This document shows positions 6,433 to 53,600 of a stretch of DNA of 54,795 nucleotides, in pieces. The stretch comes from Prorocentrum cordatum. Its lineage: Eukaryota. The translations under genes were made by a program, and so were the position numbers. Where the stretch lies: NCBI GenBank assembly GCA_963575745.1, contig CAUYUJ010000209.1, forward strand, positions 62,001-116,795, given 5' to 3'. Numbering within the stretch: position 1 is the first letter of the stretch; each line of letters starts with the position of its first letter. The notes under the pieces are model-generated. The model ran no database searches, was not told the origin of the DNA, and was given only the letters and a program-made list of their open reading frames with translations.

Positions 6433-6575
6433 TGGGGAAACCACAAAGTACCGATACCGCTACCCCCCGGACCTCTCCCAGGGTGCGTTCTGACCAGAAC
6501 TTCGAACCCCGGAGGCCCAATAATAAAGGGAAAACGGCCGAAGGCTAGCGGTATGGGTACCTGTTCCTCCTCTGA
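6433..6575. mobile_element. 143-bp sibling of the intron-4 element outside the anoctamin gene
   Basis: Its start tggggaaaccacaaagtaccgataccgctaccccccggacctctcccagggtgcgttctgacca resembles 37666-37730, and its end tagcggtatgggtacctgttcctcctctga resembles 38020-38050. TSD gctct at 6428-6432 and 6576-6580. Confidence 0.85.
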
Positions 6576-13498: not shown

Positions 13499-13659
13499 AA
13501 CATCATCATAAGCATCATCAGCATCGTCGTCGCAATCATCCTCATCATCAACCTCGTCCTCCCCCTCCCCATCCTCCTCCTCCTCCTCGTCATCACCATC
13601 ATCATCAACATCGTCACCATCGTCGTTATCGTCATCGCCATCATCAGCAACATCATCAT

Positions 13660-13691
<32 letters not shown>

Positions 13692-13734
13692 TCAACCACC
13701 ACCACCACCACCACCACCACCACCACCACACCAC

Positions 13735-13798
<64 letters not shown>

Positions 13799-13810
13799 TC
13801 ACCATCATCA
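12850..13810. repeat. Degenerate (CAT)n microsatellite
   Basis: Direct reading. Confidence 0.95.
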
Positions 13811-15138: not shown

Positions 15139-16299
15139 ACAAAAACCTTCTCCCTGTCGCACCACCAGGCGCCAGCCCCAACGCTTCGCTCGAGGCTTCC
15201 ACATAACTTCCGACTCTGCAGCTTCAAGCTCCTACTAGCTACGCAAATAGAGGCCAATATCTCATGGCGCTCTCGCCGTAAATCCGCGCACATTCGCTTT
15301 TAAAGGCTGTGAACAAATACGCGGCTGGAGGCAGGATTGTTTCCAGTGTGCAAGTTACCGCAGAAAAGTTCCAAACCAACGATCATGACGAACGTTAGAT
15401 GGTGCAACAGCCACACAGGTGGAGGGCGGTTCATTTTCAAAGTGAGCCTCTCGCTTCAGAAACCTTCCCATATTACAACTACGACAACGGCAGCCTGAAC
15501 AGCTGTAAGAGCTGTAAGCCCTTCGAGGCGAAGCTCTCGGCCCGAGGCGTCCTCGGGCTGCTCGACCAGACGTGCGTGCACGCGCACGGGCGACGCGGAC
15601 GGGACAGCTCTTCGTCAAAACGGGGCTCTCGCGAGACGCTTCGCTGAACTTGAACTTTCCTGCCCTTGGGGGACACCGAGAGGCACCGCTACCGCCTGCT
15701 GCCCGGACCTCTCTCCCGGGGGGGGTCCTGGCCAGGCTCTCGCGGCGAATGCAGCGGTGGCGACGAGGAATGCCCAGGAGGCCCAAAATCGGGAGCGGCC
15801 AAGAGGGGGGTGTCCAAGAGGGGGGGGGTGTAAATCATGACCGGCGGCATGTGCGCGGCCCAGCGGGGGGGCCAGGGACGTAATGAAACAAGAAGGGGCG
15901 CCACGAAATCTGGGGAAATATCATGGCCCGCTCCATGATATCCACCCCCCCTAGTCATCACCGCATGTAGGCCCAATCCCAACCCACTGGGCCCAATCCC
16001 AACCAACCGGGACCAATCCCAACCAGTGCGAAAAGCAAACTGGGCCCAATCCCAACCATCTTGGGATAGCCCTACAAAAGGATTTTAATTGTAGAGAAAC
16101 CCAAGACGACTGCGAAGACCAAGTGACACCCCTTCTGTCAACGCAGAGGATCTGGAAGCCAACACGCGTGCTCGAGTTGGAATTGGTCTCAATTTATGGT
16201 CTGCGCACGAGCGCTACGTTAAGATGAGCAAGAGGGCACCGAAGCGTAAGCAAAAACGCACCGAATTGCATCGATTCTAAAATATGCAAATGGATCCTC

Positions 16300-16413
16300 C
16301 TAGTAGTAGAAATAGTAGTAGTAGTGGTGGTAGCAGTAGTAGTCGTAATCGTAGTCGTAATAGTCGTAGAAGTCGTAGTAGAAGTAGTCGTAGTCGTAGT
16401 CATAGTCGTAGTC

Positions 16414-16463
<50 letters not shown>

Positions 16464-16491
16464 CGTCGTAGTAGTAGTAGTTGTAGTAGTT

Positions 16492-16522
<31 letters not shown>

Positions 16523-16554
16523 TAGTAGTAGTAGTAGTAGAGGTAGTAGTAGTG

Positions 16555-16594
<40 letters not shown>

Positions 16595-16596
16595 TA

Positions 16597-16639
<43 letters not shown>

Positions 16640-16681
16640 CAGTAGTAGTAGTAGTGCTCGTAGTAGTAGTAGTAGTAGTAA

Positions 16682-16735
<54 letters not shown>

Positions 16736-17116
16736 TGGTGGTAGCAGTAGTAGTCGAAATCGTAGTCGTAGTAGTCGTAGTAGTCGTAGCAGTCGTAGTA
16801 GTAGTCGTCGTAGTAGTAGTAGTAGTGGTCGAAGTAGCAGTAGTAGAAGTAGTAGTAGTGGTAGTAGTAGTGAAATAAAGAGCAATTGTAGTAGCAGTAG
16901 TAGCAGTAGTAGTAGTAGTAGTAGTTGTAGTAGTAGTAGTAGTAGTAGTGGTAGTAGTAGTAGTAGTATTAGAAGTAGTAGTAGAAGTAGTAGTAGTGGT
17001 GGTGGTAGTAGTAGTGCAAATAGTAGTAGTAGTAGTAGTAAGCCAGTATATGTAGTAGGGTAGTAGTAATATAGGTCGTAGTAGTAGTAGTAGTAGTAGT
17101 AGAAGTAGTAGGAGTA

Positions 17117-17153
<37 letters not shown>

Positions 17154-17215
17154 AAGTAGTAGTAGCAGTAGTAGTGGTGGTAGCAGTAGTAGTAGTAGTA
17201 GAAGTAGTAGGAGTA

Positions 17216-17252
<37 letters not shown>

Positions 17253-17422
17253 AAGTAGTAGTAGCAGTAGTAGTGGTGGTAGCAGTAGTAATCGAAATCG
17301 TAGTCGTAGTAGTCGTAGTAGTCGTAGTAGTAGTAGTAGTAGTCGTGGTAGTAGTCGTAGTCGTAGTAGTAGTAGTAATAGAAATAATAGAAGTAGTAGT
17401 AGTAGAAGTAGTAGTAGTGCTC

Positions 17423-17459
<37 letters not shown>

Positions 17460-17524
17460 CAGTAGTAGTCGAAATCGTAGTCGTAGTAGTCGTAGTAGTC
17501 GTAGCAGTCGTAGTAGTAGTAGTC

Positions 17525-17568
<44 letters not shown>

Positions 17569-17893
17569 CGAAGTAGCAGTAATAGAAGTAGTAGTAGTGG
17601 TAGTAGTAGTGAAATAAACAACACTTGTAGTAGCAGTAGTAGTAGTAGTAGAAGTAGTAGTAGTAGTGGTGGTAGTAGTAGTAGTACAAATGGTAGTAGT
17701 AGTAGTAGTAGTAGTAGCAGTGGTGGTGGCAATCGTAGTCGTAGCAAAAGTAGTCGTAGCCGTAGTCGTAGTTGTAGTAATCTTAATCGTAATAATTGTA
17801 GTAGTGGTACTCGTAGTAGCAGTAGTAATGGAAGCAGTAGTAATCATAGTCGTAAACGGTGTCGTAGTCGCAGTCGTAGTCGTAGTCGTGGTC

Positions 17894-17926
<33 letters not shown>

Positions 17927-17929
17927 CTA

Positions 17930-17965
<36 letters not shown>

Positions 17966-17986
17966 GTGGTGGTAGTCGTAGTAGTC

Positions 17987-18036
<50 letters not shown>

Positions 18037-18094
18037 CGTACTAGTCGTAGCACTATAGTAGTAGAAGTAGTAGTCGTAGTTGACATTAGTAGTA

Positions 18095-18168
<74 letters not shown>

Positions 18169-18183
18169 GTAGTAGTAGTAGTC

Positions 18184-18243
<60 letters not shown>

Positions 18244-18326
18244 TAGTCGTAGTAGCAGTAGTAGTAGTAGTAATACTCGTAGTAGTAGTGAAATAAGTAT
18301 AATAAGTAGTAGTAGCAGTAGTAGTA

Positions 18327-18363
<37 letters not shown>

Positions 18364-18671
18364 AAGGAGCAGTGGTGGTAGTAGTAGCCGCAGTAGAAGT
18401 AGTCGTAGTCGTAGGCGTGGTTGTAGTAGTCTTAGTCGTCATAGTGATAGTCGTAGTAGTAGTCGTAGTAGTAGTCGTAGTAATAGTAGTAGTAGTAGTA
18501 GTAGTAGTGGTAGTAGTAGTAGTAGTAGTAGTAGTAGTACTAGTAGTAGCAGTAGTAGTAATAGTAGTCGTCGTAGCCGGTGTCGTAGTCGTAATCGTGG
18601 TAGTAGTAGTAGTAGTAGAAGAAGTAGTAGTAGTGGTAGTAGTAGTAGTAGTAGTAGTAGACGTACGAGTC

Positions 18672-18709
<38 letters not shown>

Positions 18710-18830
18710 CGTAGTAGTAGTAGTAGTAGTAGTAGTCGTAGTAGTAGTAGTAGTAGTAGTAGCAGTAGTACTAGTAGTAGCAGTAGTAGTAATAGTAGTC
18801 GTCGTAGTCGGTGTCGTAGTCGTAATCGTG

Positions 18831-18867
<37 letters not shown>

Positions 18868-19008
18868 AAGTAGTAGTGGTGGTAGTAGTAGTAGTAGACG
18901 TAGGAGTCGTAGTAGTAATAGTAGTAGTAGTAGTAGTAGTCGTAGTAGTAGAATTCGTAACATCATTTGTATTAGTATTAGTAGTAGTAGTAATAGTAGT
19001 AGTCATCT

Positions 19009-19042
<34 letters not shown>

Positions 19043-19043
19043 C

Positions 19044-19097
<54 letters not shown>

Positions 19098-19130
19098 ATA
19101 GTAGTAGTAGTAGTAGTGGTAGTGGTAAGT
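16300..19130. repeat. 2.8-kb degenerate (TAG)n tract with internal block duplications
   Basis: Direct reading. The landmark gtagtgaaataa recurs at about 16868, 17607 and 18286. Confidence 0.95.
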
Positions 19131-21449: not shown

Positions 21450-21602
21450 CCTCATCATCATCATCATCATCCTCCTCTTGCTCCTCCTCCTCCCCCTCCT
21501 CCTCCGAACCCCCTGCCACATCGTCATCACAACCATCATGCTCATCATAATCAGCATCATAGTCACCAGCAACATCATCATCATCATCATCATCATCATC
21601 AG

Positions 21603-21659
<57 letters not shown>

Positions 21660-22375
21660 CAGCATCATCGTCATCATCATCATGATCAGCAGCAGCACCA
21701 GCGTCATCCTCCTCATGTTCACCATCACCATCGTCATCAGCATCGTCGTCCTCATCATCATCATCAGCAGCGTCATCGTCGTCGTCATCATCAGCATCAC
21801 GAAAGTCATCGACATCGTCATCGCAGCCACTCATCCTCATCATCAGCGGCATCATCATCACCATCATCATCAGCATCAGCAGCAGCAACATCATCATCAC
21901 CATGGACGTCGTCGTCGTCGCCAACATCACCATCACCATCATCAGAATTACCATCGTCATCACCATCACCATCCCCAGCCGTGTCATCAGCAGCGGCATC
22001 ATCAACATCATCAGCATCACCATCATCAACACCACCATCATGATCGGCATGCTCATCACCATCATCACCATCATCACCATCATCATCAGCATGATCAGCA
22101 TCATCCTCATCATCATCAACATCATCAGCAGCATCATCGTCATTGTCGAAGGCATCGTCCTCCTGCTCAGTACCTCTGCAACCTCATCCGCTTCCTTCTC
22201 CTCCACGTATTCTCCGTCTTCCTCCTGCCACCATCGCCGACATCGCCATCGCAGTCAGCATCAGCAGCAGCAACATCATCACCACATTGCGCATCGTCAT
22301 ACTTGTTATCATCCACCACCTTGTACGCATACCCATTGTCATCGTCAACATCGTCAGCATCGACAGCATCATCAA

Positions 22376-22432
<57 letters not shown>

Positions 22433-22630
22433 GATCGTCATCATCATCCTATTCTTCTTCAGCGCCAGCGTCATCAGCATCATCGTCATCATACTTATCA
22501 TCATCAGCAGCAGCAGCATCAGCGCCATCATCATCGTCAACATTACCACCATCATCGTCATCAGCATCACCAACATCAACAGCATTATCAGTACCGTCAT
22601 CACCACCATCATCAGCATCGGCATCATCAT
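21450..22630. repeat. Degenerate (CAT)n microsatellite
   Basis: Direct reading. Confidence 0.95.
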
Positions 22631-22769
22631 CAGATCCGCCTCCTCCCTCCTCCCCATGAACCACTGTTCTTGTAGATAGCCCCTCGCCCTGCCTGCCACA
22701 TCCCAAGACGTGTCGGTAAGTCGGGACGGGTGTCTCGACATGGACCACCTATGACCATGAAGTTTGGAA

Positions 22770-24970: not shown

Positions 24971-26034
24971 CCGCGAGGACGTCAGGCCCCCAGCGCCGGG
25001 CCTTCGATGCGCCCGGCGCCGACGCAGTTGCTCACCGGGTACTCGGCGCTGAGGCCCTCGGACTTGCCCCTGGCGCGCCAAGCGCGGCAGGTCTGCACCG
25101 TGCGGAGGGGGGCGGGGCTGCCCCCCTGCGGAGCGGCCAGGCAGGCCGAGGAGCGAGGATCGGGGGCCGAGGAGAAGTGGCGCACAGGGGTCGAGGAGCG
25201 CGGAGGAGGGTCGAGGGCCGAGGGACTAGGATCGAGGAACGAGCGCCGGTGAGGCAGGTCGAGGAGCGAGGACCGAGGTTCGTCGGGATGATTGGCCTCT
25301 TCTTCTGCACGAAGCATGGCGCCCACTCATCGCAAGATCAGCTAGCGCGCCAGGATGCACGACAGCGCCATGCGAGCAAGCGCCATGCAAGCATCGGGCC
25401 GCATCGGATAGTCGGAACATCGGAATCTAATCGGATCGAGCCTGCCAAACCATCAAAGCAAACCTTGAGTGCCGATAAGGCAGGTCGCGGAAGAGGATCC
25501 AGGTACGTGGATAGTTGGGGATGGCTCTTCTATGCGAAACACGACGCACAGTTCTCCACAATGAAGCACGCACTGCACTATAGACATCGAGCACTGTGAC
25601 AATATCATCTTGCGATGGGATGGATCCCCCACACGGGCAATCGGCAGGGAAAATGGGAGCGCCAATACTAAGACCGACGAACGGTTGAAGCGGTGGCGGC
25701 GCTTGAAGCACAGCGCCGTGCCAGAGGCGTCGCGCGGACAGTGCCAGTCTGCCAAATATGAAGCGGGAGGAGCAGGCCACAGGAAAGAGGATGTCTCTTT
25801 CCCTGATGGTGGGGCCTCTGGAAGCCTCCAGGACCTCTCGACCTCTTCCCCCACGGCCGGCCTCTCCTCCCGAGCCGATGCTTGACGGCCCCGGTGGCCG
25901 AAACCGACCCGCTCAGGCCACGGATGGCGACAGGCTGGCCGCCTCGATTGTCGAGGCGCTGGATGCCTGGGGCCCTTCTCCTCGCCTCCTCTCGGCGGCG
26001 GGCCCTGCGGGGGCGGGTCTTCTCGGAAGGCTCA

Positions 26035-26125
26035 GGAGACCTCCCGCCTTCTGAGAAGCCTTCTCCGCCGCCTTCTGAGAAGGCCTGCCCCTTCTCTCCC
26101 ACTTCCACTCTCGGCGCGCCGCCGA
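26035..26125. mobile_element. Partial copy of the 38260-38463 MITE family
   Basis: ccgccgccttctgagaaggcct...cgccgccga resembles 38408-38463. The other end was not found. Confidence 0.55.
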
Positions 26126-26945: not shown

Positions 26946-27103
26946 CTGGCCCTCCTCCTCATCCTCATCCTCCTCCTCCTGGCCCTCCTCCTCCTCCTCC
27001 TCCTCATCCTCCTCATTATCGTTATCATCAGCAGCAGCATCTGAATCATCATCATCATCAGCAGCAGCAGCATCGGCATCAGCATCAGCATGATCATGAT
27101 CAG

Positions 27104-27162
<59 letters not shown>

Positions 27163-27172
27163 TCAGCATCAG

Positions 27173-27234
<62 letters not shown>

Positions 27235-27240
27235 CCATCG

Positions 27241-27276
<36 letters not shown>

Positions 27277-27800
27277 ACATCATCATCATCATCATCATCA
27301 TCGTCATCATCAGCATCATCATCATTATCATCAGCATCAGCATCATCATCATCGGCAGCATCAACAGCATCAGCATCATCATCGACGTCATCATCATCAT
27401 CGTCGTCGTCAGCATCCTCATAATCATCAGCACCACCATCATCATCCTCATCATCATCATAATCAGTATTGCCATCATATCCACAGTCAGCATCACCAGC
27501 ATCGTCACCGTAGTCATCATAAGCATCGTCACCGCCAGCATCAGCAACAGCAGCATCATCATCAATATTACCAGCATCATCATCAACAAAATCATCATAA
27601 TCATCATCACGACCATCATCAACATAATCTTCATCATCAGCATCAGCATCATGGTCATCATCATCAACATTATCATCAGCACCATCATCGTCATCGTCAT
27701 CGTCATCATCATTATCAGCATCACCACCATCATCATCAGCACCATCGCCATCGTCATCGTCATCGTCAGTGCCATCGTCATCGTCATCGTTATCGTCGGC
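26784..27800. repeat. (CCT)n plus degenerate (CAT)n microsatellite
   Basis: Direct reading. Confidence 0.95.
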
Positions 27801-33089: not shown

Positions 33090-33542
33090 TTCCCTACCTA
33101 GGCTCTGCCTAGAGGGTTCTTACTCTCTTAGCTTAAAGGGACCGGACAGTGCAAAGCGCCCCGGGCGGTTCCCCCAGTCCCCTGGGAGCGGTTCCCCCAG
33201 TCCCCTGGGAGCTTTAGCTTTAGCTTTACCTTTAGCTTTAGCTTTAGCTTATCTTCAGCTTAACTTTAACTTAGCTTTAGCTTAGCTTTAGCTTTAGCTT
33301 TAGCTGTAGCTCAGCTTTAGCTCAGCTTTAGCTCAGCTTTAGCTTAGCTTTAGGTTTGATTTAGCTTAGTTTTAGTAGCTTAGCTTTAGCTTAGCTTAGG
33401 CTTAGCTTTAGCTTAGCTTTAGCTTAGTTTTAGCTTAGCTTTAGCTTAGCTTTAGCTTAGCTTTAGCTTAGCTTTACTGTTACTATTAATGCTGCTTTCC
33501 TAGGGGCTCCAACTCCTAGGCAGGGTCGCGCTGGGATAATTT
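33090..33542 (+). mobile_element. Non-autonomous element with internal (TTAGCT/TTAGC)n satellite, copy 1
   Basis: Inverted repeats ccctacctagg...cctaggcaggg, satellite at 33211-33476. The whole unit is repeated in inverted orientation at 34078-34678. Confidence 0.8.
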
Positions 33543-34032: not shown

Positions 34033-34789
34033 TTATGTCGGGCCTGTCCCCCTACAGGGGGACTTTCGACGAAAAAGAAATTATCCCAGTACGACCCTAC
34101 CTAGGAGTTGGAACCCCTAGGAAAGCAGCATTAGTAGTAACAGTAACGCTAAGCTAAAGCTAAGCTAAAGCTAAGCTAAAGGTCAGCTAAAGCTAAGCCA
34201 CTGCTGAGCTGAAGCTAAGCTAAAGCTAAGCTAAAGCTAAGATAAAGCTAAGCTAAAGCTAAGCTAAAGGTCAGCTAAAGCTAAGCTAAAGCTGAGCAAC
34301 AGCTAAGCTAAAGCTAAGCTACAGCTAAGCTAAAGATAAGCTAAAGCTAAGCTAAAGCTAAGCTGAAGCTAAGCTGAATCTAAGCTAAAGCTAAGCTACA
34401 GCTAAGCTAAAGGTCAGCTAAAGCTAAGCTAAAGCTAAGCTAAAGCTAAGCTAAAGCTAAGCTAAACGATAAGCGAAAAGCTGAGCAAAACGCTAAGCTA
34501 AAGCTAAGCTACAGCTAAGCTAAAGCTAAAGCTAAAGCTAAAGCTAAAGCTAAAGCTCCCAGGGGACTGGGGGGAACCGCGGGGCGGGGACTGGGGGAAC
34601 CGCCCGGGGCGCTTTCCACTGCCCGGCCCCTTTAAGCTAGAGAGTAAGAACCCTTCTAGGCAGAGCCTAGGTAGGGAAAAATACACCAAAAATACCCCAA
34701 GAGAGTCAACAAATACGCAAAACATAGTCCCCCGACATCTTTTATCGTTCGTCGAAAATCCCCCTGTAGGGGGGACAGGCCCGACTTAA
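34033..34789. mobile_element. Second copy (opposite orientation) of the 24051 TIR family, with a nested TTAGCT element
   Basis: Same TIRs. Interior 34679-34746 is the reverse-complement homologue of about 24090-24170. A third left TIR starts at 34869. Confidence 0.82.
34078..34678 (-). mobile_element. Element with internal (TTAGCT)n satellite, copy 2, inverted and nested
   Basis: Reverse complement of 33090-33542 with a longer satellite (34148-34557), inserted in an A-run. Confidence 0.8.
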
Positions 34790-35654: not shown

Positions 35655-36580
35655 TATGTTTCCCCTTCTGACACACAATGCGACCCTGCCAGCGCCTGCA
35701 GAGGCAGCCTCCCCGAGCGGCCGGCCGGCCGGCCAGGCGACGGGCCCGGCGGAGAGGCCGGGGAGAGGCGCAGGCCCCGCGCGGGCACGCGCTCGCGACG
35801 TCGGCGCCGCTCGCGGGGGCGGAGCCGGGCAGCACGAAGGATTTTTTGGACTTGCAGAGTCGCCACTCGCAAATGGCCTGGATCTGCCGCGGGGAAGGCA
35901 CGACAAACGGCACGAGGCAGACGCATATGGCTTCTCGGACGCTTGCGAGCAGGCACTCTGCGAGCAGAGGAGAGCGCGCTCGGCGAGCTTTGGGGCACCC
36001 CCAGGGCCAATCGGCCGAAACGGTGGCAGCTCATTCCCGGCGCCGTTCTTCGACCTCGGCCTCCGGGGCCCGTGCTCGGGCCGTCCTGGCCCCCTCGATG
36101 GCTGAAGCTGTGGGACGGGGGGGGGATGTCTTGCAGAGAGATCGGGGAGTGTCCGACTCTGCTGGGCGGTCTGCGGCGGATGCGCTCGGGGCAGCTTCCG
36201 TTATGCTGGTCCACGCACTGGACGGCCAAAGAAACAGTGACTGGGCTGCCGGAGCCCTCCCGTTAAAGACGCGCAGAGAAGATCTGACAAAACTGTTACG
36301 GGGCCATGAGAGACAGCGAGAGGGATCAGGGAGGCGCCTGTGCAAGGACACCCGCAGCCGAGTGCTTTTTTGACGTCTTGCCCGATAGAGAGCTTCAGAT
36401 CGGGCAGCGCGGTGCAGTGCGGCAATCCTACAGATGATGCCCGCCCTCTGCGAGGAACGGCGCGCATACCGCACAGGATGCCGCCATCCCTTCGACCCAT
36501 CCGGCGGCGCCCTTTCGAGGAGAGCCGCGGGGGACGCGCGCGGGCCAGCCGACCACCGCCTGGCAGGGCGGGCCCAGGCG

Positions 36581-37027
36581 TCACCTGGTGGGCGCGCGTG
36601 CCTCGCTCGACTCACGCCCTGCCCGCGGCGTCCTCGTGAGCTGGCCGTCCAGGCGAGGGATGGCGAGCCAGTCCTCGTTCTGCACGATCCTGCCCAGCGG
36701 GATCAAGTCCTCGACATCACAGCCTAGGTGAAGATGAACGGTTCTGTTCGTGGTGGAGGACGCGAGATTGAGGGAGGCCCCAAGCGACGGCATCCGCGAG
36801 GCCTTCTTCCCCGGGGCCGGCCCGGACTCATCGCTGGAAGCCTCTACGTCGTCGCAGTCGCCGCCTAAGCCCGAACCGCTGGAGCATGAGCCCTCGTCTG
36901 CGGCCTCGTCACCGACCAGGGCGTGACCAGCCTGATTGGACGGTCTGTGGGACGACTCTGCAGCTTGCGCGTCCATGGCGGCCTCCGTGATCACGCGGCT
37001 GGCGTAGTTCCGGCGCCTGACCAGGAC
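36581..37027 (-). CDS. Anoctamin exon 6 (C-terminal tail)
   Basis: Acceptor gcccAG|G in phase 0. Reads VLVRRRNYASRVITEA... to TGA at 36581, in the frame of ORF 36581..37219. Confidence 0.65.
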   Translation of the reverse strand, partial: VLVRRRNYASRVITEAAMDAQAAESSHRPSNQAGHALVGDEAADEGSCSSGSGLGGDCDDVEASSDESGPAPGKKASRMPSLGASLNLASSTTNRTVHLHLGCDVEDLIPLGRIVQNEDWLAIPRLDGQLTRTPRAGRESSEARAPTR

Positions 37028-40000
37028 CTGGGCACAGGCTCGAGGCGCCCGAGTCTGGTTACGCAGGGGCTCGCTTCGCCACGTCGGGCGGGCGGGGCCC
37101 CAGCGGGTGGGCCTGGCTGGCCGCCACCCCAACAAGTTGGGCCGGCGGGCCAGGAAGGCGGGCGGGCGGGCGGGCTTTCCAGCATGCGAGCGAGCTGGCT
37201 TCAACGGGTGGAGCCTCACGAGCAGCGGGTGAAACAGAAGAGGTGGGCGGCGAAGCGTCCCGGGCGGGACGATCTGGGCGAAGGGAGCTGGGCGAAGCGA
37301 GGCCCGATCGAAGCGAGCCAGGCGAAACGAGCCATGCGAAGCGAGCCTGGCAGAGCGAGCCCAGGCGAAGCGTCCCCGAGAAGCGAGCCTCGGGCAAAGC
37401 GAGCTGGGCGAAGCAAGCAGGGCGAAGCGATACCCAGGCGAAGCGCGTCTACCCGTCTATTCCCCTATGGCCTTCGCGTGTGGGGACGTTGGCGGCACGA
37501 CGATGTCCACCAGCGCCCATATGCCCGATATCAGCATGAACCACATAACGAGCCCACTAATCTTCGCGAGCAGAAGGGCGCCGTGGAAGAAACGCCCCCA
37601 CAGCACGACGAGCACCCCGGAAAAGAAAATGCCAAAGTTCATCAGCACGGTCATCACGCCCGACCTGGAGAGACCATGAAGGTACCGATCCCGCTGCTCC
37701 CCGGACCTCTCCTGGGGTGCGCTCTGACCAGGAGGCGAATCCAGCGGTGGCGACGAGGGCCTCCCAGGAGGAGGAGGAGGAGGAGGAGGAGGAGGAGGAG
37801 GAGGAGAGAAGGAGGAGGAGGAGGAGGAGGAGAGGAGGAGGGGAGAGGAGAGGAGAAGAGGGGAAGAGGAGGAGGAGGACGAGGAAGAGGAGGGGGGAGG
37901 AGAGGAGGAGGGGGAGGAGGAGGAGGAGGAGGAGGAGGAGGAGGAGGAGGAGGAGGAGAGGGAGGAGGAGTAGGCGGAGGAGGAGTAGGCGGAGGAGGAG
38001 GGGGAGAACGAGGGAGGGGTAGCGGTGGGGGCACCTTTCCCTCCGCCTGACGACCAGGCCCCCACGCCTCCGAGCTTGTGGGGGAGCGGGCGCCGCGTAA
38101 ACTTCCACGTGAGGAGCAGGGCCCGGAAGCGCAGCGCGCAGGCGAAGTGCACGAGGCACAGGGGCACCACCATGGGCTGCAGCGTCCCGAAGAGCATCAC
38201 GAAGCCCAGGCCGATGACGAGCTGGAGCATGTTCTCGATCTGCGCCCGCATGTTGAGGGCCGGCGGCGAGCGAGGGGGGGGGGAGGCGAGGAGGAGGAGG
38301 CCCTCTCGGAGGGCTCGCGCAAGTCCCCCGGCCTTCGGGGAGGTTTGCTGAGCCCTCCCCGAAGACACGGGCAGCTTCTCAGGAGGCGCGAGGGCTTCTG
38401 AAGAGTCCCGCCGCCTTCTGAGAAGGCCTTCTCCTTCTCGCTTCCCCCCTCGCTCGCCGCCGAGAAGGGCGTGTACTTCGACTGCTCCTCCAAGAATGAT
38501 CGGTGCTTCACGCTGCCGTCCTCGCTCGTGCTTTTCTGAAGCTTGTAGTCCTCCCACCGCAGCACGAGCCACACTTGCACCGCCTCGAGCACGCTGAGGC
38601 CGATGCTGCAGGCCAGAAGGATACCCACCAGCATGCTCACCTGCCTCTGCAGGGCCAGGAAGCAACCAGCCTCAGGGCAATGCCCAGACACCAGCTGGCT
38701 GAAAGCCACGGATACGCAGGGCCAATAATTGTTCACGGCCTGGAACAGAAACTGACCCCACACCCAGCTGTCATGGTAATCCTGGTCATACTTGTGATTC
38801 TCCATCTCGACGAGCCTGGCAGAAAGCGCATTGTACAGCAGCTCGGAAATCTTCACGATGATACTGAGCCACAGAGACGCAACCAGATCGAGGTCTCCCC
38901 GATGGATGTGGACCCAGGTCCCTGATATTAGCATCACCGCGGCACAGCAGACGAGAGTGATGCAGACTGACAAGACTCGCAGGCCGACTGCCGTTTTAAA
39001 AGGCGCATTCTCTTCCATAAGGTTCCCGTCGACATCCGACTTCATGAAAACGCCCTTGAAGCTCGGGCGAATGATTTGGTCGATGGCATCTTGCTCGTTC
39101 CACAGCGTCTTGAAATACTCTTCGTCTCGCCTCCACAGGTTCGCCATGACCCTCGCCCAGGCAAGTATGAGGATGGAGAACGGCATGAGCTGCCTCTCTG
39201 GGACGACCGTGCGATCCCCAAGCCGTACACCGACGTCGACCCCGAGCAGTTGCACGGCGAGGCGGACCGGAACGAACTTCAAGACGGTGATCAGGATCGC
39301 TGCCACGCTGAGGCATACCAGGCCCTTGGACCAGGGCTGAACCTAAACGGTTTTTTTGTTTTCGTTTTGTTGTCGTTTTCCCTCGCACTTGTCTCGAATC
39401 CACCTCCACCGCAAAACGAAATCAAAACGAAAACGGCCCACGAAATCGCCAAAACACCGTTTAGGTCCAGCCCTGCCTTGGACCACACGCCCTGCCACAC
39501 GAAGCCGAACGCCAGCTGCGAGCCGTAGTACTCCCCCACGAGCGGAATGGGCTGCACAAAGCTCAGGTCCGTCACCACCTCCAGCGGCGCCCAGGTGTCC
39601 CGCAGCCTGTTCAGCCACAGCTCGCTGTGGCACGGGTACCAATCTGTGACGATGCCGACGTCCTTGACAGCTTCGAGGTTGAGGAATCGTGTGAGTTCGA
39701 GCTGGATAACACGGATGCGCGCCGAGCCGCTCATGACCGAGCCTTCGACGCCACTGTCGCGGTATAGCCGGTACAGTGCCCGCTCATCAGGCTCGTCGAT
39801 TGCGTTGGCCTTGAACAGCGACTTGACGAGCCTTTGATCGTAGCGCAAGAACGGAGGCGACGATTGTGGATCCCGTGGGTCCTGAAGGATCTTAAGTCGT
39901 TCTACCACCGCGTGCGTCGTCTGGAGCTCAACGTTCCCCCGCTGGAGGTAATGTGAGACGACCTCCGGCCGGTTGAGGCTGATGCAAAGAAACAACTCGT

Positions 40001-41448
40001 CGCCATCGATAGAACTGAACAGGTTCACGGAGAAACCAAGGAGCGGCAATGACCTACACATGTCCTTCAGGACAAGGATCCTCAGCTCCCCCATAGTTAT
40101 GTCCAAGGCCTCGCCGACCGTGCTCCTGATGCGACGCAGGGCCTTCTCCGCGGCCGTGGCGCGCGACACCTTGAGATCGTGGTCTCTGATGACGGTCTCG
40201 ATCCCTTGGAAGAAGCCCTGGTCCGGCCGGTGAGCCAAGGCACCCTGCAGCATTTCGCGCGTGACGAGCTTGTCCCTGTCGTGCTGCAGCTCGTAGCTCG
40301 GATGGGGAAACACGAAAACGACGTCGGCATGCATATGGAACTTGTTTGTCGACTCCTGACTGGCATCTAGCTTCTGCGCATGGGCCGCGTCTTCCCATGT
40401 GACGCTCGACGTGGACGTGGTGGTGGCCTCGATTTGCCGCCGCCAAGCTCGAGGGGTGAGGATCTGCGCCACCGTCGCCGTCTCCGTCTTCGGCCGCGAG
40501 TGGTCGTCCCCAAAGTGATGATGCTCCTCGTGGTCGTGCGTATAGAAGAACATGAAGTATACAGTACCCCACAAGATGCCACTGACCACAATGACGGGCA
40601 GGGTCAACGTGCTGCTCGTTCGCGCCTCCATCCCTGGCATCAGCCGCTCGATAAGGTGCAGGTTTGAGATGAACATGTGCCTCATGCCAGATGGGAGCCT
40701 GCGGAAGTCGTCGATGCACTCCCTGAACCTCTGCTTCACGCCATCCACGATCGAGGCGTCGCCCTCCAAGATCGCCTTCTTCACGTCGTCGGGATCGAGA
40801 TCATGCTCATCGGGAATGTCCACGTCAACGTGGCCGGGAAGATCCGGCAGCGGAGGCTCAGTCGTGCCGGCAAGGGGAGCGCCCGCGTGCAGTCGTAGAC
40901 CTGAGGAAGAGCCGCGGGCGGGGGGGGGAACCAGCTCAGTGGGGGGGAATCAGCGATACACGTCGTTCATTTCTGATCGTGCTCATTTCTGATCGTGCTC
41001 GTCTCTAACGGTTCCTGGCCCCCCAGTGGCCAGGAAGAGGCCCAGGACAGAACCGTCAGAAATGGAAGGATCTCGACCCCCCAAAAAATTGGAGGAACTT
41101 TCGAAAAATCAGAGAGGAACAACGTGCACGTCGCCAAAACCTCGGCGATATACACCCCCGACGGAAAATCCGCACCCTCCCGGGCTTGGTAGGCTGTCGG
41201 GGCCCCGGCGGCGGAGAAAGTGGGGCCGTCGGGGGACGGGGCGCCCCCGCGGAGCCGATCTCTCCCCCCCGAGCGCGCTCCCCCCGAAGACCGCGGCGGC
41301 CCAGGAGAGCGGCCACCGCCCCGGCGGGGGGTAGCGACCCGGGCGCGGCGTGCGGCTCGGAGGCGTGCCCCGGGCCCCGGGGCTCCCCGAACGGGGCCGC
41401 CGTGCGGGCGAGGAGGCACAGCGCCAGGCACCGGAGGGAGTGCTCCAT
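36581..41448 (-). CDS. Anoctamin/TMEM16-family membrane protein, 6-exon model, about 1090 aa
   Basis: Anoctamin motifs occur in order: QPIPLVGEYYGSQLAFGFVWQG, LWRRDEEYFKTLW, IRPSFKG, ENHKYDQDYHDSWVWGQFLFQAVNNY, C..GCFLALQRQV, ENMLQLVIGLGFVMLF, RRPLPHKLGGVGAW. Exons 41448-41292, 40900-39477, 39324-38458, 38239-38055, 37664-37472 and 37027-36581 are phase-consistent and sum to 3273 nt. The exon 3/4 junction is uncertain. Confidence 0.88.
37472..37664 (-). CDS. Anoctamin exon 5 (TM9-TM10)
   Basis: Acceptor ctccAG|G, two hydrophobic segments (SGVMTVLMNFGIFFSGVLVVLWG and ISGLVMWFMLISGIWALVDIVVP), donor AAG|GC. Confidence 0.8.
37666..38050. mobile_element. TG...GA element with 5-bp TSD forming intron 4 (37665-38054, GT-AG), carrying a (GGA)n tract
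   Basis: TSD cgacc at 37661-37665 and 38051-38055. Both ends are homologous to the copy at 6433-6575. Confidence 0.85.
38055..38239 (-). CDS. Anoctamin exon 4 (TM7-TM8)
   Basis: IENMLQLVIGLGFVMLF...RRPLPHKLGGVGAW. The 5' boundary is uncertain (38239-38259). Donor TG|GT. Confidence 0.82.
38260..38463. mobile_element. 204-bp MITE interrupting anoctamin between TM6 and TM7
   Basis: Perfect 19-bp TIRs cggcggcgagcgagggggg (38261-38279 / 38444-38462). Near-TSD gaggg/gaagg. Removing 209 nt restores the frame. Confidence 0.85.
38458..39324 (-). CDS. Anoctamin exon 3 (TM1-TM6)
   Basis: Lies in the frame of ORF 38197..39306 and contains ENHK...FLFQAVNNY. The 3' boundary is uncertain (38458-38468). 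Confidence 0.85.
39332..39475. mobile_element. 144-bp hAT-like MITE forming intron 2 (39325-39476, GC-AG)
   Basis: 19-bp TIRs cagggctgaacctaaacgg / ccgtttaggtccagccctg (1 mismatch). Perfect 8-bp TSD ccttggac at 39324-39331 and 39476-39483. Confidence 0.93.
39477..40900 (-). CDS. Anoctamin exon 2 (extra TM, cytosolic N-domain, start of TM1)
   Basis: Lies in the frame of ORF 39291..40823. Acceptor tcttcctcAG|G, donor AAG|GC, contains the QPIPLVGEYYG motif. Confidence 0.88.
40902..41287. mobile_element. TG...GA element with 5-bp TSD forming intron 1 (40901-41291, GT-AG)
   Basis: TSD agacc at 40897-40901 and 41288-41292, degenerate terminal inverted repeats, sibling copy at 31924-32145. Confidence 0.8.
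41292..41448 (-). CDS. Anoctamin exon 1 (signal-peptide-like N-terminus)
   Basis: Starts ATG with MEHSLRCLALCLLARTAAPFG. The G|GT donor at 41291 is phase 1 and matches the acceptor at 40901. Confidence 0.65.
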
Positions 41449-41560
41449 GGTCGGCCGGGAGGCGCAGGGAGCTGCACGGGCGGGCTCGTGGCGTGTCCGT
41501 CGGGGTCGTTAGGTATCATGTCCTCTTCATTGCGTGGTAGAACTGCGGCATCGAGACGCG

Positions 41561-41588
41561 CTCGAGCCGACTTGAGATAAAATAACGG
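41561..41588 (-). other. Relic dinoflagellate spliced-leader sequence(s) upstream of the anoctamin ATG
   Basis: Minus strand reads ccgttattttatctcaag-tcggctcgag versus DinoSL CCGTAGCCATTTTGGCTCAAG (11/15 at the 3' end plus a partial second copy), about 115-140 nt before the ATG. Confidence 0.55.
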
Positions 41589-42047
41589 ACGCACACACAC
41601 ACACTGACAGACAGACAGACGGACGTGCGCGCAGACGCACACACGCAGACAACCACGCAGACAACCACGCACACACACACACACGAACACCCGCACACAA
41701 GCACAGACACACACGCACACAAACAAACAAACAAACAAACAAACAAACAAACAAACAAACATCATGAACCAGCGAGCAGGGGGACGCCGTCCGGCCGGGG
41801 ATCAATGTTGGCACATGCGGTGTGCTATGTTGCGGCCACGTGTATACAATAGCTGCAATACCGCACACACACACACGCACATTATCCTCCTGCGCAGCGT
41901 TGTCGTAACGATTGGTCGCAGACTGAAGGGACACATCAGCATAAATTGCAATCGCACGCGTGACGCTCGTGCTGAAGACAAGGAACGTTCTCGCCTGGGT
42001 TACGGGCGACCCGAAACGAAATGTACAAAGCGAGAAACAGAAAAATA

Positions 42048-50648: not shown

Positions 50649-53600
50649 ATGCCTTTCCTGAGAATGTGTGGATCCAATCCTCAACATACGTCAGGTGAAC
50701 GCCTTCCTGAACTCCTGGAGGAAACAAGGAATTCCGATCTGGTTCTTCTGGCAGGTACTCAGCAGGTGGAACACAATTCTCTCGCCCCGCATGTTCACAG
50801 CACGAGTTGTGCTGAGCGCTGGCAAAATGTGTATCACTGGTCCGTACTTCCCATCGCCGTTCAGCAACCACAGCTGTGGCTGCTCACTCGCCTTCGGCCC
50901 GCAGGTGCAAGCTCGACACCTACTTCGGACGTGGGCGCCTCCGCCAGAGGCGCGAGGCAGAGCGGTTGCAGCAAGAGTGAAGTGCGGCTCGGTTGACATG
51001 TGTGGCATAGTATGTTATCCCCCACCCCGTCCGAAGTCACGTGCTGAACATGGAGGTTTTTTCAAGACTGTGGCGAGGTTGGTTGCACGGCTCACGGCCA
51101 TATTGTGCTCTTCCAGTTCGCTGCACGCCGATCGTTGTTTGCGGTCTGAATGATGGTAGTGGTGAAGTTACATCGGACGGAGTGTAGTCGCCAGTTGATT
51201 CTCCAATAGTGGGCATGCCGATCGAGTTATGTGTGAACGATGCAGGTCACCGGATGCGTATGCTGATGGAGACTCAGGAGCTCCCGGCCGCGAACACGTT
51301 CGGGCCTGAGATTGAATGCGCGTGTTTGGGCACTAGTGAGAAGTCACGAATTGATCGTTTCCCAACCATCCTGTGGTGCTGGGTCCTCGTTTTGAAAGGA
51401 CAGCGCAACGCGTCTCCTCCTCCTTCCTTCCTCCTCGCCCCTTCTCCCTCCTCTCTCCTCCGCAGTTCGCATGCGTCTCTCCCACCCAGTACAACGTTTC
51501 GTGGCCCCAGCGGAGGCTCCAACGACGGTCCCAATGGCGAAGTCCGCATGAGGTTCCTGCGCCCAGTGCAACGTTTCGTGGCCCCAGAGGGAGCTACAAC
51601 GACGGTACCAGTAGCGCAGTCCACATGCGGTTCCTGCGCACAGTGCAGAGTTTGGGTCCCAAGAGGGAGCTGCACCGAAGGTTCCAGTGGCGCAGTCCGC
51701 ATGCGGCTCCTGCGCCCACTACAACGTTTCGTGGCCCCAGAGGGAGCTCCACTGAAGGTTCCAGTGGCGCAGTCCGCATGCGGTTCCTGCCCCCAGTGCA
51801 ACGCTTCGTCTCCCCAGAGGGAGCTCCACCGAAGGTCCCAGGTAGCGCAGTTCGAATGCGGTTCCCCCACCCAATACACCGCGTCGTGGCCCCAGCGGGA
51901 GCTCCACCGAAGGTCCCTGTGGCGCAGTCCGCATGCGGATCCTGCGCCGAGTGCGGCGCTTCGTGGCCCCAGGGGGAGCTCCACAGAAGTTGCGGTTCCA
52001 GTGGCGCAGTCCGCATGCGGTTCCTGCGCGCAGCGCAGCGTTTCGTGGCCCCAGGGGGAGCTCCACCGAAGGTTCCAGTGGCGAAGTCCGCATGCGGTCC
52101 CCGCGCCCAGTACAGCGCTTCGTGGCCCCAGAGGGAGCTCCACCGAAGGTCCCAGGGGCTCAGTCCGCATGCGGTTCCCCCGCCCAGTACAGCGCCTCCT
52201 GCCCCAGAAGGAGCTCCACCGAAGGTTCCAGTGGCGCAGTCCGCACGTGGCTCCCCGCCCACTACAGCGTTTCGTGGTCCCAGAGGGAGCTCCACCGAAG
52301 GTCGCAGGTGGCGCAGTCCGCATGCGTTTCCCCCACCCAATAGGGCGTTTCGTGGCACAGAGGGAGCTCCACGGAAGACGATGCCCACAATTGCTCACAA
52401 CTGCATATGGTTGGGTTGTTCGCCAGGCTATGTATGATTCGGTGTCTACGTGTCGGGCACATCTCCGCCCGGGCGCCAAGCGGCATGCGATTCGAAGAGC
52501 ATCATCTCGTGATCATGTCCCTGTGGCGGCTGTCCTGCGGCATGGGAAACACGGCGGCACTGTCGACGCATCTCTCACTCGAGAACGATGAGAGCGTGAA
52601 GCACGAGTGCGCGCACAGTGCTTGGAGACGCTCAAGACCAGATGCGATCCTCTCCACCTGCAGTGGTTCAGAGACAATGCGTCCCCCGAGGAGAACTTCG
52701 AGGAGCTGGAGCGAGTCTTGGCGGAGGCAGGCCAGGCTTGTTTTACCCATTCACATGGAATCTCGTCCTGGATATTCGGCCGATTGTCTGGGCGTGGGCA
52801 CTCTTCTGGCACGGCGAGCCCAGCTTCGGAGTGCCAAGGACCAAGCATCACCTGAGGAAGCCCTCTTCGCCTTGACCATGAACTGAAGGAGTGAACCCGC
52901 CAGCTCACATAGATCAACGCCACGTGACCCGGAGGCCGAGAACTCAACTTGCCCGCGAGGCTGTCGATCTGTGGCATCAGGGGCGCGCGGCAGAGGGGAT
53001 GAAACTGACCGGGCGCGCAGCTGGCACGCGGCACGGGCCCGAACGTCACGATGGTCGTTTAGTTCGCCGCACCCCCCTAGCCGAGAAGCTCGACTCGAAG
53101 CCTTGGGGCAAGTCTGGGCCTGAGGGCGGCGGGGAGGTGGTCGTATATTCTTGGCAGAACTGGAGGGACTCTCGGGTGGACACTGGCGTCTTCTTCTCCG
53201 ACATTTCGAATGAGGAGGCCTTGGAGCTCGTCGGAGAAGATATTCACGAAATTCGCAGATACGCCAGGAGGGCACCTGAGAGAAAGTCGGTTCCTGCGGG
53301 GACCGCGCCTCTGGAGTTCTGGCACCAGTGCACGTGGCCAAACTACAGAGTTCGTTCTCGGGCTTGGCTAGGAGCTGCAGCGAAAATCGCGCCGCAGGGC
53401 TCCTGGTCTCTTCTTAGTCCGGGGCTGGCAAAAATGCGGGAGCACCAGGGGGTGTCTTTATACTGGAACAAATCTCAGGGCGCGAACATCCCAAAGTGGC
53501 TGGAGGAAGGACCCAGGGGGGTTCGCGCGGTTCACGTTCTGCCGTTCGCAGGCAAGTCCTGCTGTGCTAAGAAGCTGAAGGTTACTCCAACGGTGGCCGA

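What the first reader, a model, noticed from the sequence alone, without database searches (positions are those of the whole stretch)
36581..41448. An anoctamin gene whose introns come from several distinct transposon families (introner-colonised gene)
Seen: four of the five interruptions have TSDs and inverted ends (40902-41287, 39332-39475, 38260-38463, 37666-38050). They share no obvious interior similarity, and removing each element plus one TSD restores the anoctamin frame. Three have splice sites that achieve exactly this removal. Known: introner transposons create spliceosomal introns in dinoflagellates and other algae. Inference: this locus records repeated, independent intron gain by 8-bp-TSD and 5-bp-TSD DNA elements in a previously intron-poor gene.
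Basis: partly seen in the sequence, partly recalled or inferred. Interest (0 to 1): 0.9.

Follow-up and report, generated by a model that had tools for sequence, protein, structure and literature searches.

The report
Transposon-derived introns in an anoctamin gene
An expressed algal-type anoctamin gene is interrupted five times, mostly by small transposon-like insertions that are cut out of the RNA as introns, a known way of gaining introns, but one of them is removed without the usual splice signals.

Summary
The minus strand carries an intact six-exon anoctamin gene (CDS 36581-41448, 1093 aa).

- I2 (39325-39476) is a clear MITE. It has a 25-nt TIR and a perfect 8-bp TSD, and is removed as GC..AG using TSD bases.
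- I3 (38255-38463) is a 204-nt TIR element of a 5-bp-TSD family. Other copies lie in the window and in two metagenome contigs.
- I4's 3' 100 nt is a dispersed repeat that ends exactly at the acceptor AG.
- I1 has only a 5-nt boundary repeat and weak inverted ends.
- I5 is an ordinary GC-AG intron.

Inverted ends are significant for I2 and I3, marginal for I1 and absent for I4.

This is therefore a real introner-colonised gene, which is a known phenomenon. The new element is I3. The RNA lacks the element plus one repeat copy, but no GT/GC..AG pair is available (TC..TC, CT..CT or TC..CC). My odds are about 50% hairpin-guided non-canonical RNA removal (Euglena/Amoebophrya-like), 30% an empty allele or paralogue, and 15-20% a reverse-transcription artefact.

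The organism was not identified and no orthologous genomic loci could be fetched. "Previously intron-poor" remains untested.

The parts
36581..41448 (-). Anoctamin/TMEM16 coding region. It has six exons and gives 1093 aa plus a stop. The mRNA reaches at least 36400-41564.
   Evidence: The spliced CDS is 3282 nt and in frame. It is identical to the transcript-derived protein P0001 except for 2 residues that match SNPs seen in run X16. Pfam PF04547 matches.
41292..41448 (-). Exon 1 (coding part). The ATG is at 41448-41446.
   Evidence: RNA contigs cover 41288-41564 joined to 40896. P0001 starts MEHSLRC.
40901..41291 (-). Intron I1, 391 nt, GT..AG, phase 1. The boundary repeat GGTCT lies at 41288-41292 and 40897-40901.
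   Evidence: Joint 40896->41288 is present in 4/4 runs, slidable by 5. The inverted ends are weak (pair I2 at 70%, 1 of 300 shuffles). Other transcripts share an interior part, with loose ends at 40956/40957 in X1.
39477..40900 (-). Exon 2
39325..39476 (-). Intron I2, 152 nt, GC..AG, phase 0. It equals the MITE 39332-39475 (144 nt) plus one copy of the 8-bp TSD. On the gene strand the TSD reads GTCCAAGG, at 39476-39483 and 39324-39331.
   Evidence: TIR 39332-39356 / 39451-39475, 25 nt at 92%. The 19-nt TIR pattern occurs only at these two places, against 0.02 expected. Joint 39323->39476 is in 4/4 runs, slidable by 10. RNA hairpin -86.6 kcal/mol, z -6.5. Contigs in X1 and X8 diverge at 39475-39477, which indicates other copies.
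38464..39324 (-). Exon 3 (anoctamin core)
   Evidence: Pfam E 1.4e-26
38255..38463 (-). Interruption I3, 209 nt, absent from RNA with no GT/GC..AG pair. It is slidable by 2, so the ends read TC..TC, CT..CT or TC..CC. It equals the element 38260-38463 (204 nt) plus one copy of a 5-nt repeat: CCTTC at 38464-38468 and CCCTC at 38255-38259.
   Evidence: Joint 38254->38464 is in 4/4 runs. P0001 reads ...KYTPF|NMRAQ... and 3 homologues are gap-free there. If I3 were retained, the frame would stop at aa 903 of 1093.
38261..38279 (.). Right arm of the I3 terminal inverted repeat. Its partner is 38444-38462.
   Evidence: 19 nt at 100% complementary, extending to 45 nt at 82%. RNA fold -153.1 kcal/mol, z -6.3.
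38444..38462 (.). Left arm of the I3 terminal inverted repeat
   Evidence: Contigs of other transcripts diverge at 38462-38464, which marks the family terminus (table 7).
38055..38254 (-). Exon 4
   Evidence: Pfam profile 328-384
37665..38054 (-). Intron I4, 390 nt, GT..AG, phase 2, in frame and free of stops, with a (CCT)n core at 37766-38006. The boundary repeat GGTCG lies at 38051-38055 and 37661-37665.
   Evidence: Joint 37660->38051 is in 4/4 runs, slidable by 5. The 3' ~100 nt (37665-37765) is repeated at 6433-6497 and 15681-15781, and similarity ends at the acceptor AG. The TIR test is not significant.
37472..37664 (-). Exon 5
37028..37471 (-). Intron I5, 444 nt, GC..AG, phase 0. It contains degenerate GCTTCGCC-type tandem repeats and has no TSD beyond AGG.
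   Evidence: Joint 37026->37471 is in 4/4 runs, slidable by 3. Repeat families D5, D10 and D15.
36581..37027 (-). Exon 6 (coding part). The stop codon is at 36581-36583.
25992..26125 (.). Shorter copy of the I3 family elsewhere in the window. It has the same TCGGCGGCG...CGCCGCCGA ends and no clear TSD.
6433..6497 (-). Copy of the I4-family 3' end
   Evidence: 83% identity over 66 nt; alignment A1
15681..15781 (-). Copy of the I4-family 3' part
   Evidence: 75% identity over 101 nt; alignment A1

Best explanation
This is an intact, expressed anoctamin (TMEM16) gene whose introns are mostly small non-autonomous DNA-transposon insertions, that is, introners.

- I2 is a hAT-like MITE with an 8-bp TSD. 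Its GC donor is made from the last TSD base plus the first element base. Its AG acceptor lies inside the second TSD copy. Splicing therefore removes exactly the element plus one TSD and restores the pre-insertion codons.
- I1 and I4 follow the other known pattern. The GT donor lies in a 4-5-nt boundary repeat and the acceptor AG is the last two bases of the inserted sequence.
- I5 is an ordinary GC-AG intron.
- I3 belongs to a 5-bp-TSD TIR family. In another locus (L077) a copy sits in AGGTC and so gains GT..AG. In this gene it sits in CCTTC and has no usable pair, yet the mRNA lacks element plus one repeat copy.

I take it as most likely (about 0.5) that I3 is removed at the RNA level. In that reading the 19-45-bp terminal hairpin brings the two ends together. 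This is how euglenid nonconventional introns and Amoebophrya non-canonical introners appear to work.

Shown: the gene model, the removal of all five from RNA, the TIR/TSD anatomy of I2 and I3, and the multi-copy status of I3 and I4.
Inferred: the insertion origin of I1 and I4, and the RNA-level, hairpin-guided removal of I3.
For: RNA evidence:
- Five joints are present in contigs of 4 of 4 laid runs from 4 studies. Two of these are recorded poly(A) RNA libraries.
- The X1 contig has 0 differences from the window over 3599 nt.
- The spliced CDS equals P0001 at 1091 of 1093 residues.
- Junctions I2-I5 fall in gap-free conserved alignment with the homologues that cover them: 3 of 3 (P0002-P0004, 77/63/52% identity).

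Element anatomy:
- I2 and I3 TIRs beat 300 of 300 shuffles.
- Hairpin z-scores are -6.5 and -6.3.
- I2's TSD is a perfect 8 bp.

I3 family:
- A scan of metagenome contigs with the 19-nt TIR gave 102 loci. BLAST with I3 showed only 2 of them (L077, L095) to be full copies, at 80% over ~190 nt.
- L077 has a perfect 5-bp TSD. It interrupts an ORF whose two halves come into frame on removal of 205 nt, with GT..AG supplied by AGGTC.

I4 family: two more copies lie in the window, ending at the AG.

Site selection: only 4-9% of sites in this CDS would supply AGG[T/C] to such elements. I2 occupies one of them.

Against an empty allele for I3:
- The repeat copies differ (CCTTC / CCCTC) and one element end is G where the family has A. 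The insertion is therefore probably not brand new.
- Yet X1 RNA is identical to the window's exons.
- The exons downstream of I3 are intact and conserved.

Precedents read:
- Roy et al. preprint, parts 1-2 of the whole text: TSD-recruited splice sites, TSDs of 3-8 nt.
- Farhat 2021, passages: IR 8-20 nt plus DR 3-5 nt, non-canonical.
- Nomura 2025, abstract and sections 5 and 8: code 5'-N3CDG..CH'GN5-6|R.
Against: - For I3 no DNA run of the RNA-seq strains could be laid. An empty allele or paralogue therefore cannot be excluded.
- All evidence comes from assembled contigs, which drop rare variants and cannot show retention.
- A very stable hairpin flanked by direct repeats is the classic setting for reverse-transcriptase template switching.
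- 4 of the 5 repeat-bounded elements examined (I1, I2, I4, L077) carry AGG[T/C]. This suggests that the ordinary spliceosome is the rule here and that I3 should not be spliceable.
- I3 fits the Euglena code only in part. The acceptor spacer is 4 nt rather than 5-6, and the exon then starts with a pyrimidine.
- Splicing of the L077 copy is inferred from frame only. A protein search found no transcript product.
- I4 has no significant TIR, and its 5-nt repeat has a 5% chance under a splice-consensus context. The same holds for I1.
- No orthologous genomic loci were available, so the gain of each intron is inferred from anatomy alone.
Confidence: 0.72

Rival explanations
1. I3 is a DNA-level insertion polymorphism. 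The assembled copy carries a disruptive TE insertion that is heterozygous, strain-specific or in one paralogue. The mRNA seen in all runs is transcribed from an uninterrupted copy, so nothing non-canonical happens.
For: No GT/GC..AG pair exists in any of the three allowed registers. The family normally appears to rely on TSD-supplied AG|GT (L077). The family is abundant in transcripts and may be active (loose ends at 38462-38464 in X8, X15 and X16). Contigs drop minor variants (tool note).
Against: The flanking repeat is imperfect (4 of 5) and one terminal base deviates. That is unexpected for a very recent insertion. The X1 contig is identical to the window over 3599 nt, so it comes from the same haplotype or a nearly identical one. 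A null allele that is old enough to have decayed and is still present is unlikely.
Confidence: 0.3
2. The I3 joint is an artefact. Reverse transcriptase jumps across the base of the ~200-nt GC-rich hairpin between the flanking direct repeats, and the cellular mRNA actually retains the element.
For: Predicted fold -153 kcal/mol with a perfect 19-bp GC-rich terminal stem. Direct repeats flank it. The junction lies within those repeats.
Against: The joined form is the main contig in 4 of 4 runs from 4 studies, at depths 13.8-149. Other copies of the same element ends are read through into their flanks in the same libraries (tables 7 and 8). Retention would truncate the protein at aa 903 of 1093, yet the downstream exons are intact and conserved. 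The microhomology at the joint is only 2 nt.
Confidence: 0.15
3. I1 and I4 are ordinary old spliceosomal introns that later accumulated repeats, namely a (CCT)n array and a nested dispersed element. Their 5-nt boundary repeats would be chance extensions of the G|GT..AG|G consensus, not target-site duplications.
For: TIR test: I4 69 of 300 and I1 1 of 300 shuffles reach the observed score. A boundary repeat of 5 or more occurs in 5.3% of consensus-matched pseudo-introns. The repeated part of I1 seen in other transcripts ends at 40956/40957, which is inside the intron and not at its border.
Against: Two such repeats in one gene have a joint chance of about 0.3% (my product of the 5.3%). I4's similarity to two other copies ends exactly at the acceptor AG, as expected if the element end supplies the acceptor. 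Both fit the published GHNN 4-nt-TSD pattern.
Confidence: 0.25

Closest known systems
Introner elements / introner-like elements of algae and dinoflagellates (Micromonas, Aureococcus, Symbiodinium, Polarella; Roy et al. preprint 10.1101/2020.10.14.339549; Gozashti et al. PMC9860276)
   Same: These are short non-autonomous TIR/TSD elements inside coding sequence, removed as introns. Splice sites are carried by the element or recruited from the TSD. [quoted passage not shown] I1 and I4 match the GHNN 4-nt TSD pattern in which the element end supplies the 3' site. Several families with different TSD lengths coexist in one genome.
   Different: The organism here is unidentified, and no spliced leader is seen on its transcripts. 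One element (I3) is removed without any GT/GC/GA..AG pair, which these papers do not describe in the parts I read.
Non-canonical introner elements of Amoebophrya (Farhat et al. 2021, PMC7789003)
   Same: Inverted repeats of 8-20 nt join the intron ends. Direct repeats of 3-5 nt overlap the borders. There is no fixed dinucleotide. The same organisation is also seen in some canonical introns. I3 has a 19-nt perfect IR and a 5-nt DR.
   Different: In Amoebophrya more than 60% of introns are non-canonical and genomes are compact (232-273 genes/Mb). Here 1 of 5 is non-canonical, and the 55-kb window holds one Pfam-recognisable gene amid microsatellites.
Nonconventional introns of euglenids (Nomura et al. 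2025, PMC12501133; review PMC11282704)
   Same: Borders are non-GT-AG and the ends are base-paired. TSD-like slidable repeats occur at most introns. I3 fits the strict donor half (TCT-CGG) and has the complementary CCG.
   Different: I3's acceptor spacer is 4 nt, which gave about 20% efficiency in their assay, and the exon then begins with T. I2's fit follows automatically from a CAG-ended element with an 8-bp TSD. Membership of the organism in Euglenozoa is not shown.
hAT-superfamily MITEs
   Same: I2 has an 8-bp TSD and TIRs beginning CAG. That this is the hAT hallmark is recalled, not tested.
   Different: No autonomous partner or transposase was found in the window.

Membership tests
Anoctamin / TMEM16 (Pfam PF04547) | Profile match above the curated cut-off | tested here: met
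   Exon 3 scores 93.8 bits against a cut-off of 28. Exon 4 alone scores 26.1 bits on the adjoining profile part.
Introner elements (TE-derived spliceosomal introns) | The sequence lies inside a coding gene and is removed from mature mRNA | tested here: met
   All five joints are present in 4 of 4 runs. The spliced CDS equals P0001.
Introner elements (TE-derived spliceosomal introns) | Multiple similar copies exist in the same genome | tested here: inconclusive
   Met for I3 (window 25992-26125; L077 and L095; RNA loose ends) and for I4 (2 more copies in the window). For I2 there are only RNA contigs diverging at the TIR end. For I1 only an interior part is shared. No whole genome is held.
Introner elements (TE-derived spliceosomal introns) | Hallmarks of transposition (TSD, TIR) | tested here: met
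   I2 has an 8-bp perfect TSD plus a 25-nt TIR. I3 has a 5-bp TSD (4 of 5 here, perfect in L077) plus a 19-nt perfect TIR. I1 and I4 have boundary repeats only.
Introner elements (TE-derived spliceosomal introns) | Canonical splice sites are carried by the element or co-opted from the TSD | tested here: met
   Met for I1, I2 and I4. Not met for I3, which has no GT/GC..AG in any allowed register.
Introner elements (TE-derived spliceosomal introns) | The intron position is lineage-specific (absent from orthologues) | not testable with these tools
   Only transcript-derived homologues were found. No genomic relative was found in the metagenome contigs.
Euglenid nonconventional introns | 5'-N3CDG ... 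CH'GN5-6 | purine exon start | tested here: not met
   I3 has a donor N3+CGG and a partner CCG, but the acceptor spacer is 4 nt and the exon starts with T in that register. Other registers give 1+6 or 2+5. I2 meets the code, but trivially, because it is a CAG...CTG element with an 8-bp TSD.
Euglenid nonconventional introns | The host is a euglenozoan with spliced-leader trans-splicing | tested here: inconclusive
   The contig 5' ends at 41556-41564 carry no extra leader letters (table 8). Rfam finds no SL RNA or any other RNA gene in the window. The taxon was not identified.
Amoebophrya-type non-canonical introners | IR of 8-20 nt joining the ends, DR of 3-5 nt over the borders, non-canonical dinucleotides | tested here: met
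   For I3: 19-nt perfect IR, 5-nt DR (4 of 5), TC..TC / CT..CT / TC..CC. This is a structural resemblance only. The genome context differs from Amoebophrya.
hAT MITE (I2) | 8-bp TSD and short TIRs, no coding capacity | tested here: met
   The superfamily assignment by TIR start is recalled, not tested against a TE library.

The most novel reading that the evidence does not exclude
This organism, which is not shown to be a euglenid or Amoebophrya, has a second intron-removal route alongside ordinary GT/GC-AG splicing. That route excises TIR elements precisely as element plus one target-site copy, measuring from the terminal hairpin and ignoring GT-AG. I3 reveals it because its target site offers no splice signals. 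I2, whose ends fit the same geometry, might use it too. Such a route would let transposons land almost anywhere in coding sequence without killing the gene.
Probability: 0.3. Interest if true: 0.8.

Novelty: new member of a known kind. Interest (0 to 1): 0.5.

Why it matters
Introners are the best-supported source of new spliceosomal introns. A single gene with RNA-verified introns from at least three transposon families, each using a different way of obtaining splice sites, is a compact illustration of that process. It does not extend the concept.

The part that could matter more is I3. Suppose a hairpin-ended element without GT-AG is truly removed from RNA in a lineage where nonconventional splicing is not described. 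That would widen the known distribution of spliceosome-independent, or very tolerant, intron removal. It would also give a tractable test case: one gene, one element and an exact product.

Tried and rejected
1. My first model for I3 was a GC..AG intron at 38240-38460. The RNA joint and P0001 refute it.

2. I considered nested or two-step splicing and an opposite-strand reading of I3. Both are rejected from the sequence. The first intron base would be T or C in every allowed register, and the + strand gives GA..GA, AG..AG or GG..GA.

3. Orthologous or empty-site DNA could not be found.
- The search for related loci with P0001 in metagenome contigs matched 12 pattern stretches, and none encodes a relative.
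- No whole genome is held.

4. Viral carriage of the elements is not supported.
- The I2 TIR gave 0 hits.
- The I3 18-mer gave 4 hits, and all 4 match only the seed.

5. A search for a transcript product of the L077 gene found none. A search with exon 2 at near lengths also found none.

6. The organism could not be identified.
- Pfam on 55 + 113 other ORFs of the window gave only three sub-threshold matches.
- Rfam found nothing.
- The listing of cluster members and the protein Atlas were unavailable.
- Earlier scan notes held nothing.

7. One BLAST of the I4 ends was swamped by (CCT)n hits and was not used.

8. Stretches of the introns without contig cover, including 38255-38313 in all four runs, are not used as evidence for or against retention.

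9. I considered whether I1 is a diverged member of the I3 family, because the starts are similar (TCGG.GG.GAGCG). This was not established.
Full report
**What is there**

The minus strand between 36581 and 41448 encodes an anoctamin. Pfam PF04547 matches the translation of 38461-39324 at E 1.4e-26 (profile positions 40-312). It also matches 38057-38239 on the adjoining part of the profile (328-384). No other ORF of the window gave a Pfam match above threshold: 55 ORFs and 113 gave three sub-threshold matches only. Rfam found no RNA gene. The rest of the 55 kb is about 60% G+C and is dominated by microsatellites and satellites.

**RNA evidence**

The run search listed 24 runs. Twenty hold the stretch or part of it, 18 hold half of its words or more, 6 are on record as RNA, and they come from 8 studies. 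Shares of 0.59-0.70 fit a spliced transcript of a 5.2-kb stretch.

I laid 4 of the 24, one per study: X1 and X8 (kind not on record), and X15 and X16 (poly(A) RNA libraries). In all four, one long contig (3094-3599 nt, depth 13.8-149) joins the following positions:
- 37026->37471
- 37660->38051
- 38254->38464
- 39323->39476
- 40896->41288 (in X15 this joint is carried by a separate short contig)

The X1 contig has no difference from the window. X8 and X15 have one difference and X16 has three.

Joining the exons accordingly gives a 3282-nt open frame. Its product equals the database protein P0001 at 1091 of 1093 residues, and the two differences are the X16 SNPs. Three homologues (77, 63 and 52% identity) align without gaps across junctions I2 to I5.

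**Anatomy of each interruption**

I2 (39325-39476):
- It is a 144-nt element with 25-nt inverted ends at 92%. It is flanked by a perfect 8-bp duplication.
- Its 19-nt end motif occurs only at these two places in the window, against 0.02 expected.
- The joint is slidable by 10 nt. Control pseudo-introns reach this in 0.01-0.15% of cases.
- One register gives GC..AG. The donor G is the last TSD base, the C is the first element base, and the AG lies in the second TSD copy.
- Contigs in X1 and X8 share the element end and diverge at 39475-39477, so other copies are transcribed elsewhere.

I3 (38255-38463):
- It holds a 204-nt element with a perfect 19-nt inverted repeat, extending to 45 nt at 82%.
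- It folds as RNA at -153 kcal/mol, z -6.3.
- Contigs of other transcripts diverge at 38462-38464, which marks the family terminus.
- A shorter copy lies at 25992-26125.
- A scan of metagenome contigs with the 19-nt end gave 102 loci. BLAST with I3 showed 2 of them to be full copies, L077 and L095, at 80% over about 190 nt. The rest match only the seed.
- L077 has a perfect 5-bp duplication. L095 and the window copy have none.

I4 (37665-38054):
- It has a (CCT)n core and no significant inverted ends (69 of 300 shuffles).
- Its 3' 100 nt recurs at 6433-6497 and 15681-15781, and similarity stops at the acceptor AG.

I1 (40901-41291):
- It has marginal inverted ends (1 of 300 shuffles).
- An interior part is shared with other transcripts.

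I1 and I4 each have an exact 5-nt boundary repeat. Such a repeat is found in 5.3% of consensus-matched pseudo-introns.

I5 (37028-37471) is a GC..AG intron with tandem repeats and no duplication beyond AGG.

**How they are removed**

I1, I2 and I4 follow patterns already described for introners, in which splice sites are recruited from the TSD or supplied by the element end (Roy et al. preprint, parts 1-2 read). Only 7.4% of sites in this CDS would give an I2-type insertion an AGG[T/C], and 4-9% would do so for a 5-bp-TSD element. I2 sits on such a site. So does the L077 copy of the I3 family. On its coding strand the L077 duplication reads AGGTC, and removal of 205 nt brings ...LDAENFAQ and VDMTDVGP... 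into one frame. This is what selection for spliceable insertions predicts.

**The exception**

I3 lies in CCTTC (second copy CCCTC). The RNA keeps ...CCCTTC|AACATG..., which is the uninterrupted codons F-N. All homologues have these contiguous. The three registers allowed by the 2-nt slide give TC..TC, CT..CT or TC..CC on the gene strand, and none is canonical on the other strand. If retained, I3 would shift the frame and stop translation at residue 903 of 1093.

There are three readings.

(a) RNA-level, hairpin-guided removal.
- The geometry resembles Amoebophrya non-canonical introners (inverted repeats of 8-20 nt, direct repeats of 3-5 nt; passages read).
- It also resembles the Euglena code 5'-N3CDG..CH'GN5-6|R (abstract and sections 5 and 8 read).
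- In one register I3 reads TCT-CGG...CCG-GCCC|T. The donor half fits. The acceptor spacer is one short, and the exon start is a pyrimidine.

(b) An empty allele or paralogue supplies the mRNA.
- Against this: the repeat copies and one element end are not perfect, the X1 RNA is identical to the window's exons, and the downstream exons are intact.
- No DNA run could be laid.

(c) Reverse-transcriptase template switching across the hairpin.
- Against this: the joined form is the main contig in four studies, and other copies' ends are read through in the same libraries.

I put these at about 0.5, 0.3 and 0.15-0.2.

**Comparison with what is known**

Introners are established in Micromonas, Aureococcus, dinoflagellates, fungi and many marine protists, including a Chrysochromulina MAG (passages of PMC9860276; passages of PMC12130899).

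The gene is therefore a new example of a known kind. I could not say whether this genome's introners are in print, because I could not name the organism. A search for papers holding both "coccolithophore" and "introner" found 0. The main text of PMC12130899 holds no haptophyte term. Its supplementary species lists were not opened.

GC donors at about 60% are reported for Emiliania huxleyi (passages of PMC4028052). GT/GC-AG conventional introns with slidable repeats are reported for Euglena. Both are compatible with this gene, and neither identifies it.

**What stays open**

- Whether the gene was intron-poor before, and when each insertion happened.
- Whether I1 and I4 began as insertions or acquired repeats later.
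- The true mechanism for I3.

Noticed in passing
window 13934-15057 and 51461-52377: The same ~77-nt satellite family occurs as two arrays in opposite orientation, about 37 kb apart. The consensus units are reverse complements of each other in their shared blocks.
   Followed up: no
window 33210-33476 and 34144-34553: Two arrays of an 11-nt unit (TTAGCTTTAGC and its complement TAAAGCTAAGC) face each other across about 670 bp. Together they form a large inverted pair of tandem arrays.
   Followed up: no
window 16301-19127: A 2.8-kb (TAG)n microsatellite gives a low-GC block with strong GC skew. Long (CAT)n and (TCA)n arrays lie at 12854-13810, 21519-22632 and 27004-27768. These arrays produce long spurious ORFs.
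   Followed up: no
window 41590-41760: (GT)n, (GTCT)n and (GTTT)n microsatellites lie directly upstream of the transcript's 5' end, which is at about 41556-41564.
   Followed up: no
P0002 (homologue, 77% identity): This partial transcript-derived protein begins only four residues before the position of intron I2 (VWSK|GLVC). The break may be a coincidence, or its contig may end at an intron or repeat at the same site in that species.
   Followed up: no
L077:1-135 and 700-819: The metagenome contig that carries the second I3-family copy also has long (AGG)n/(CCT)n stretches flanking its ORF, like the core of I4. Such arrays may be a common intron filling in this lineage.
   Followed up: partly
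window 37665-38054: Intron I4 is in frame and free of stops. If retained it would add 130 low-complexity residues rather than break the protein. No contig showing this was seen.
   Followed up: partly
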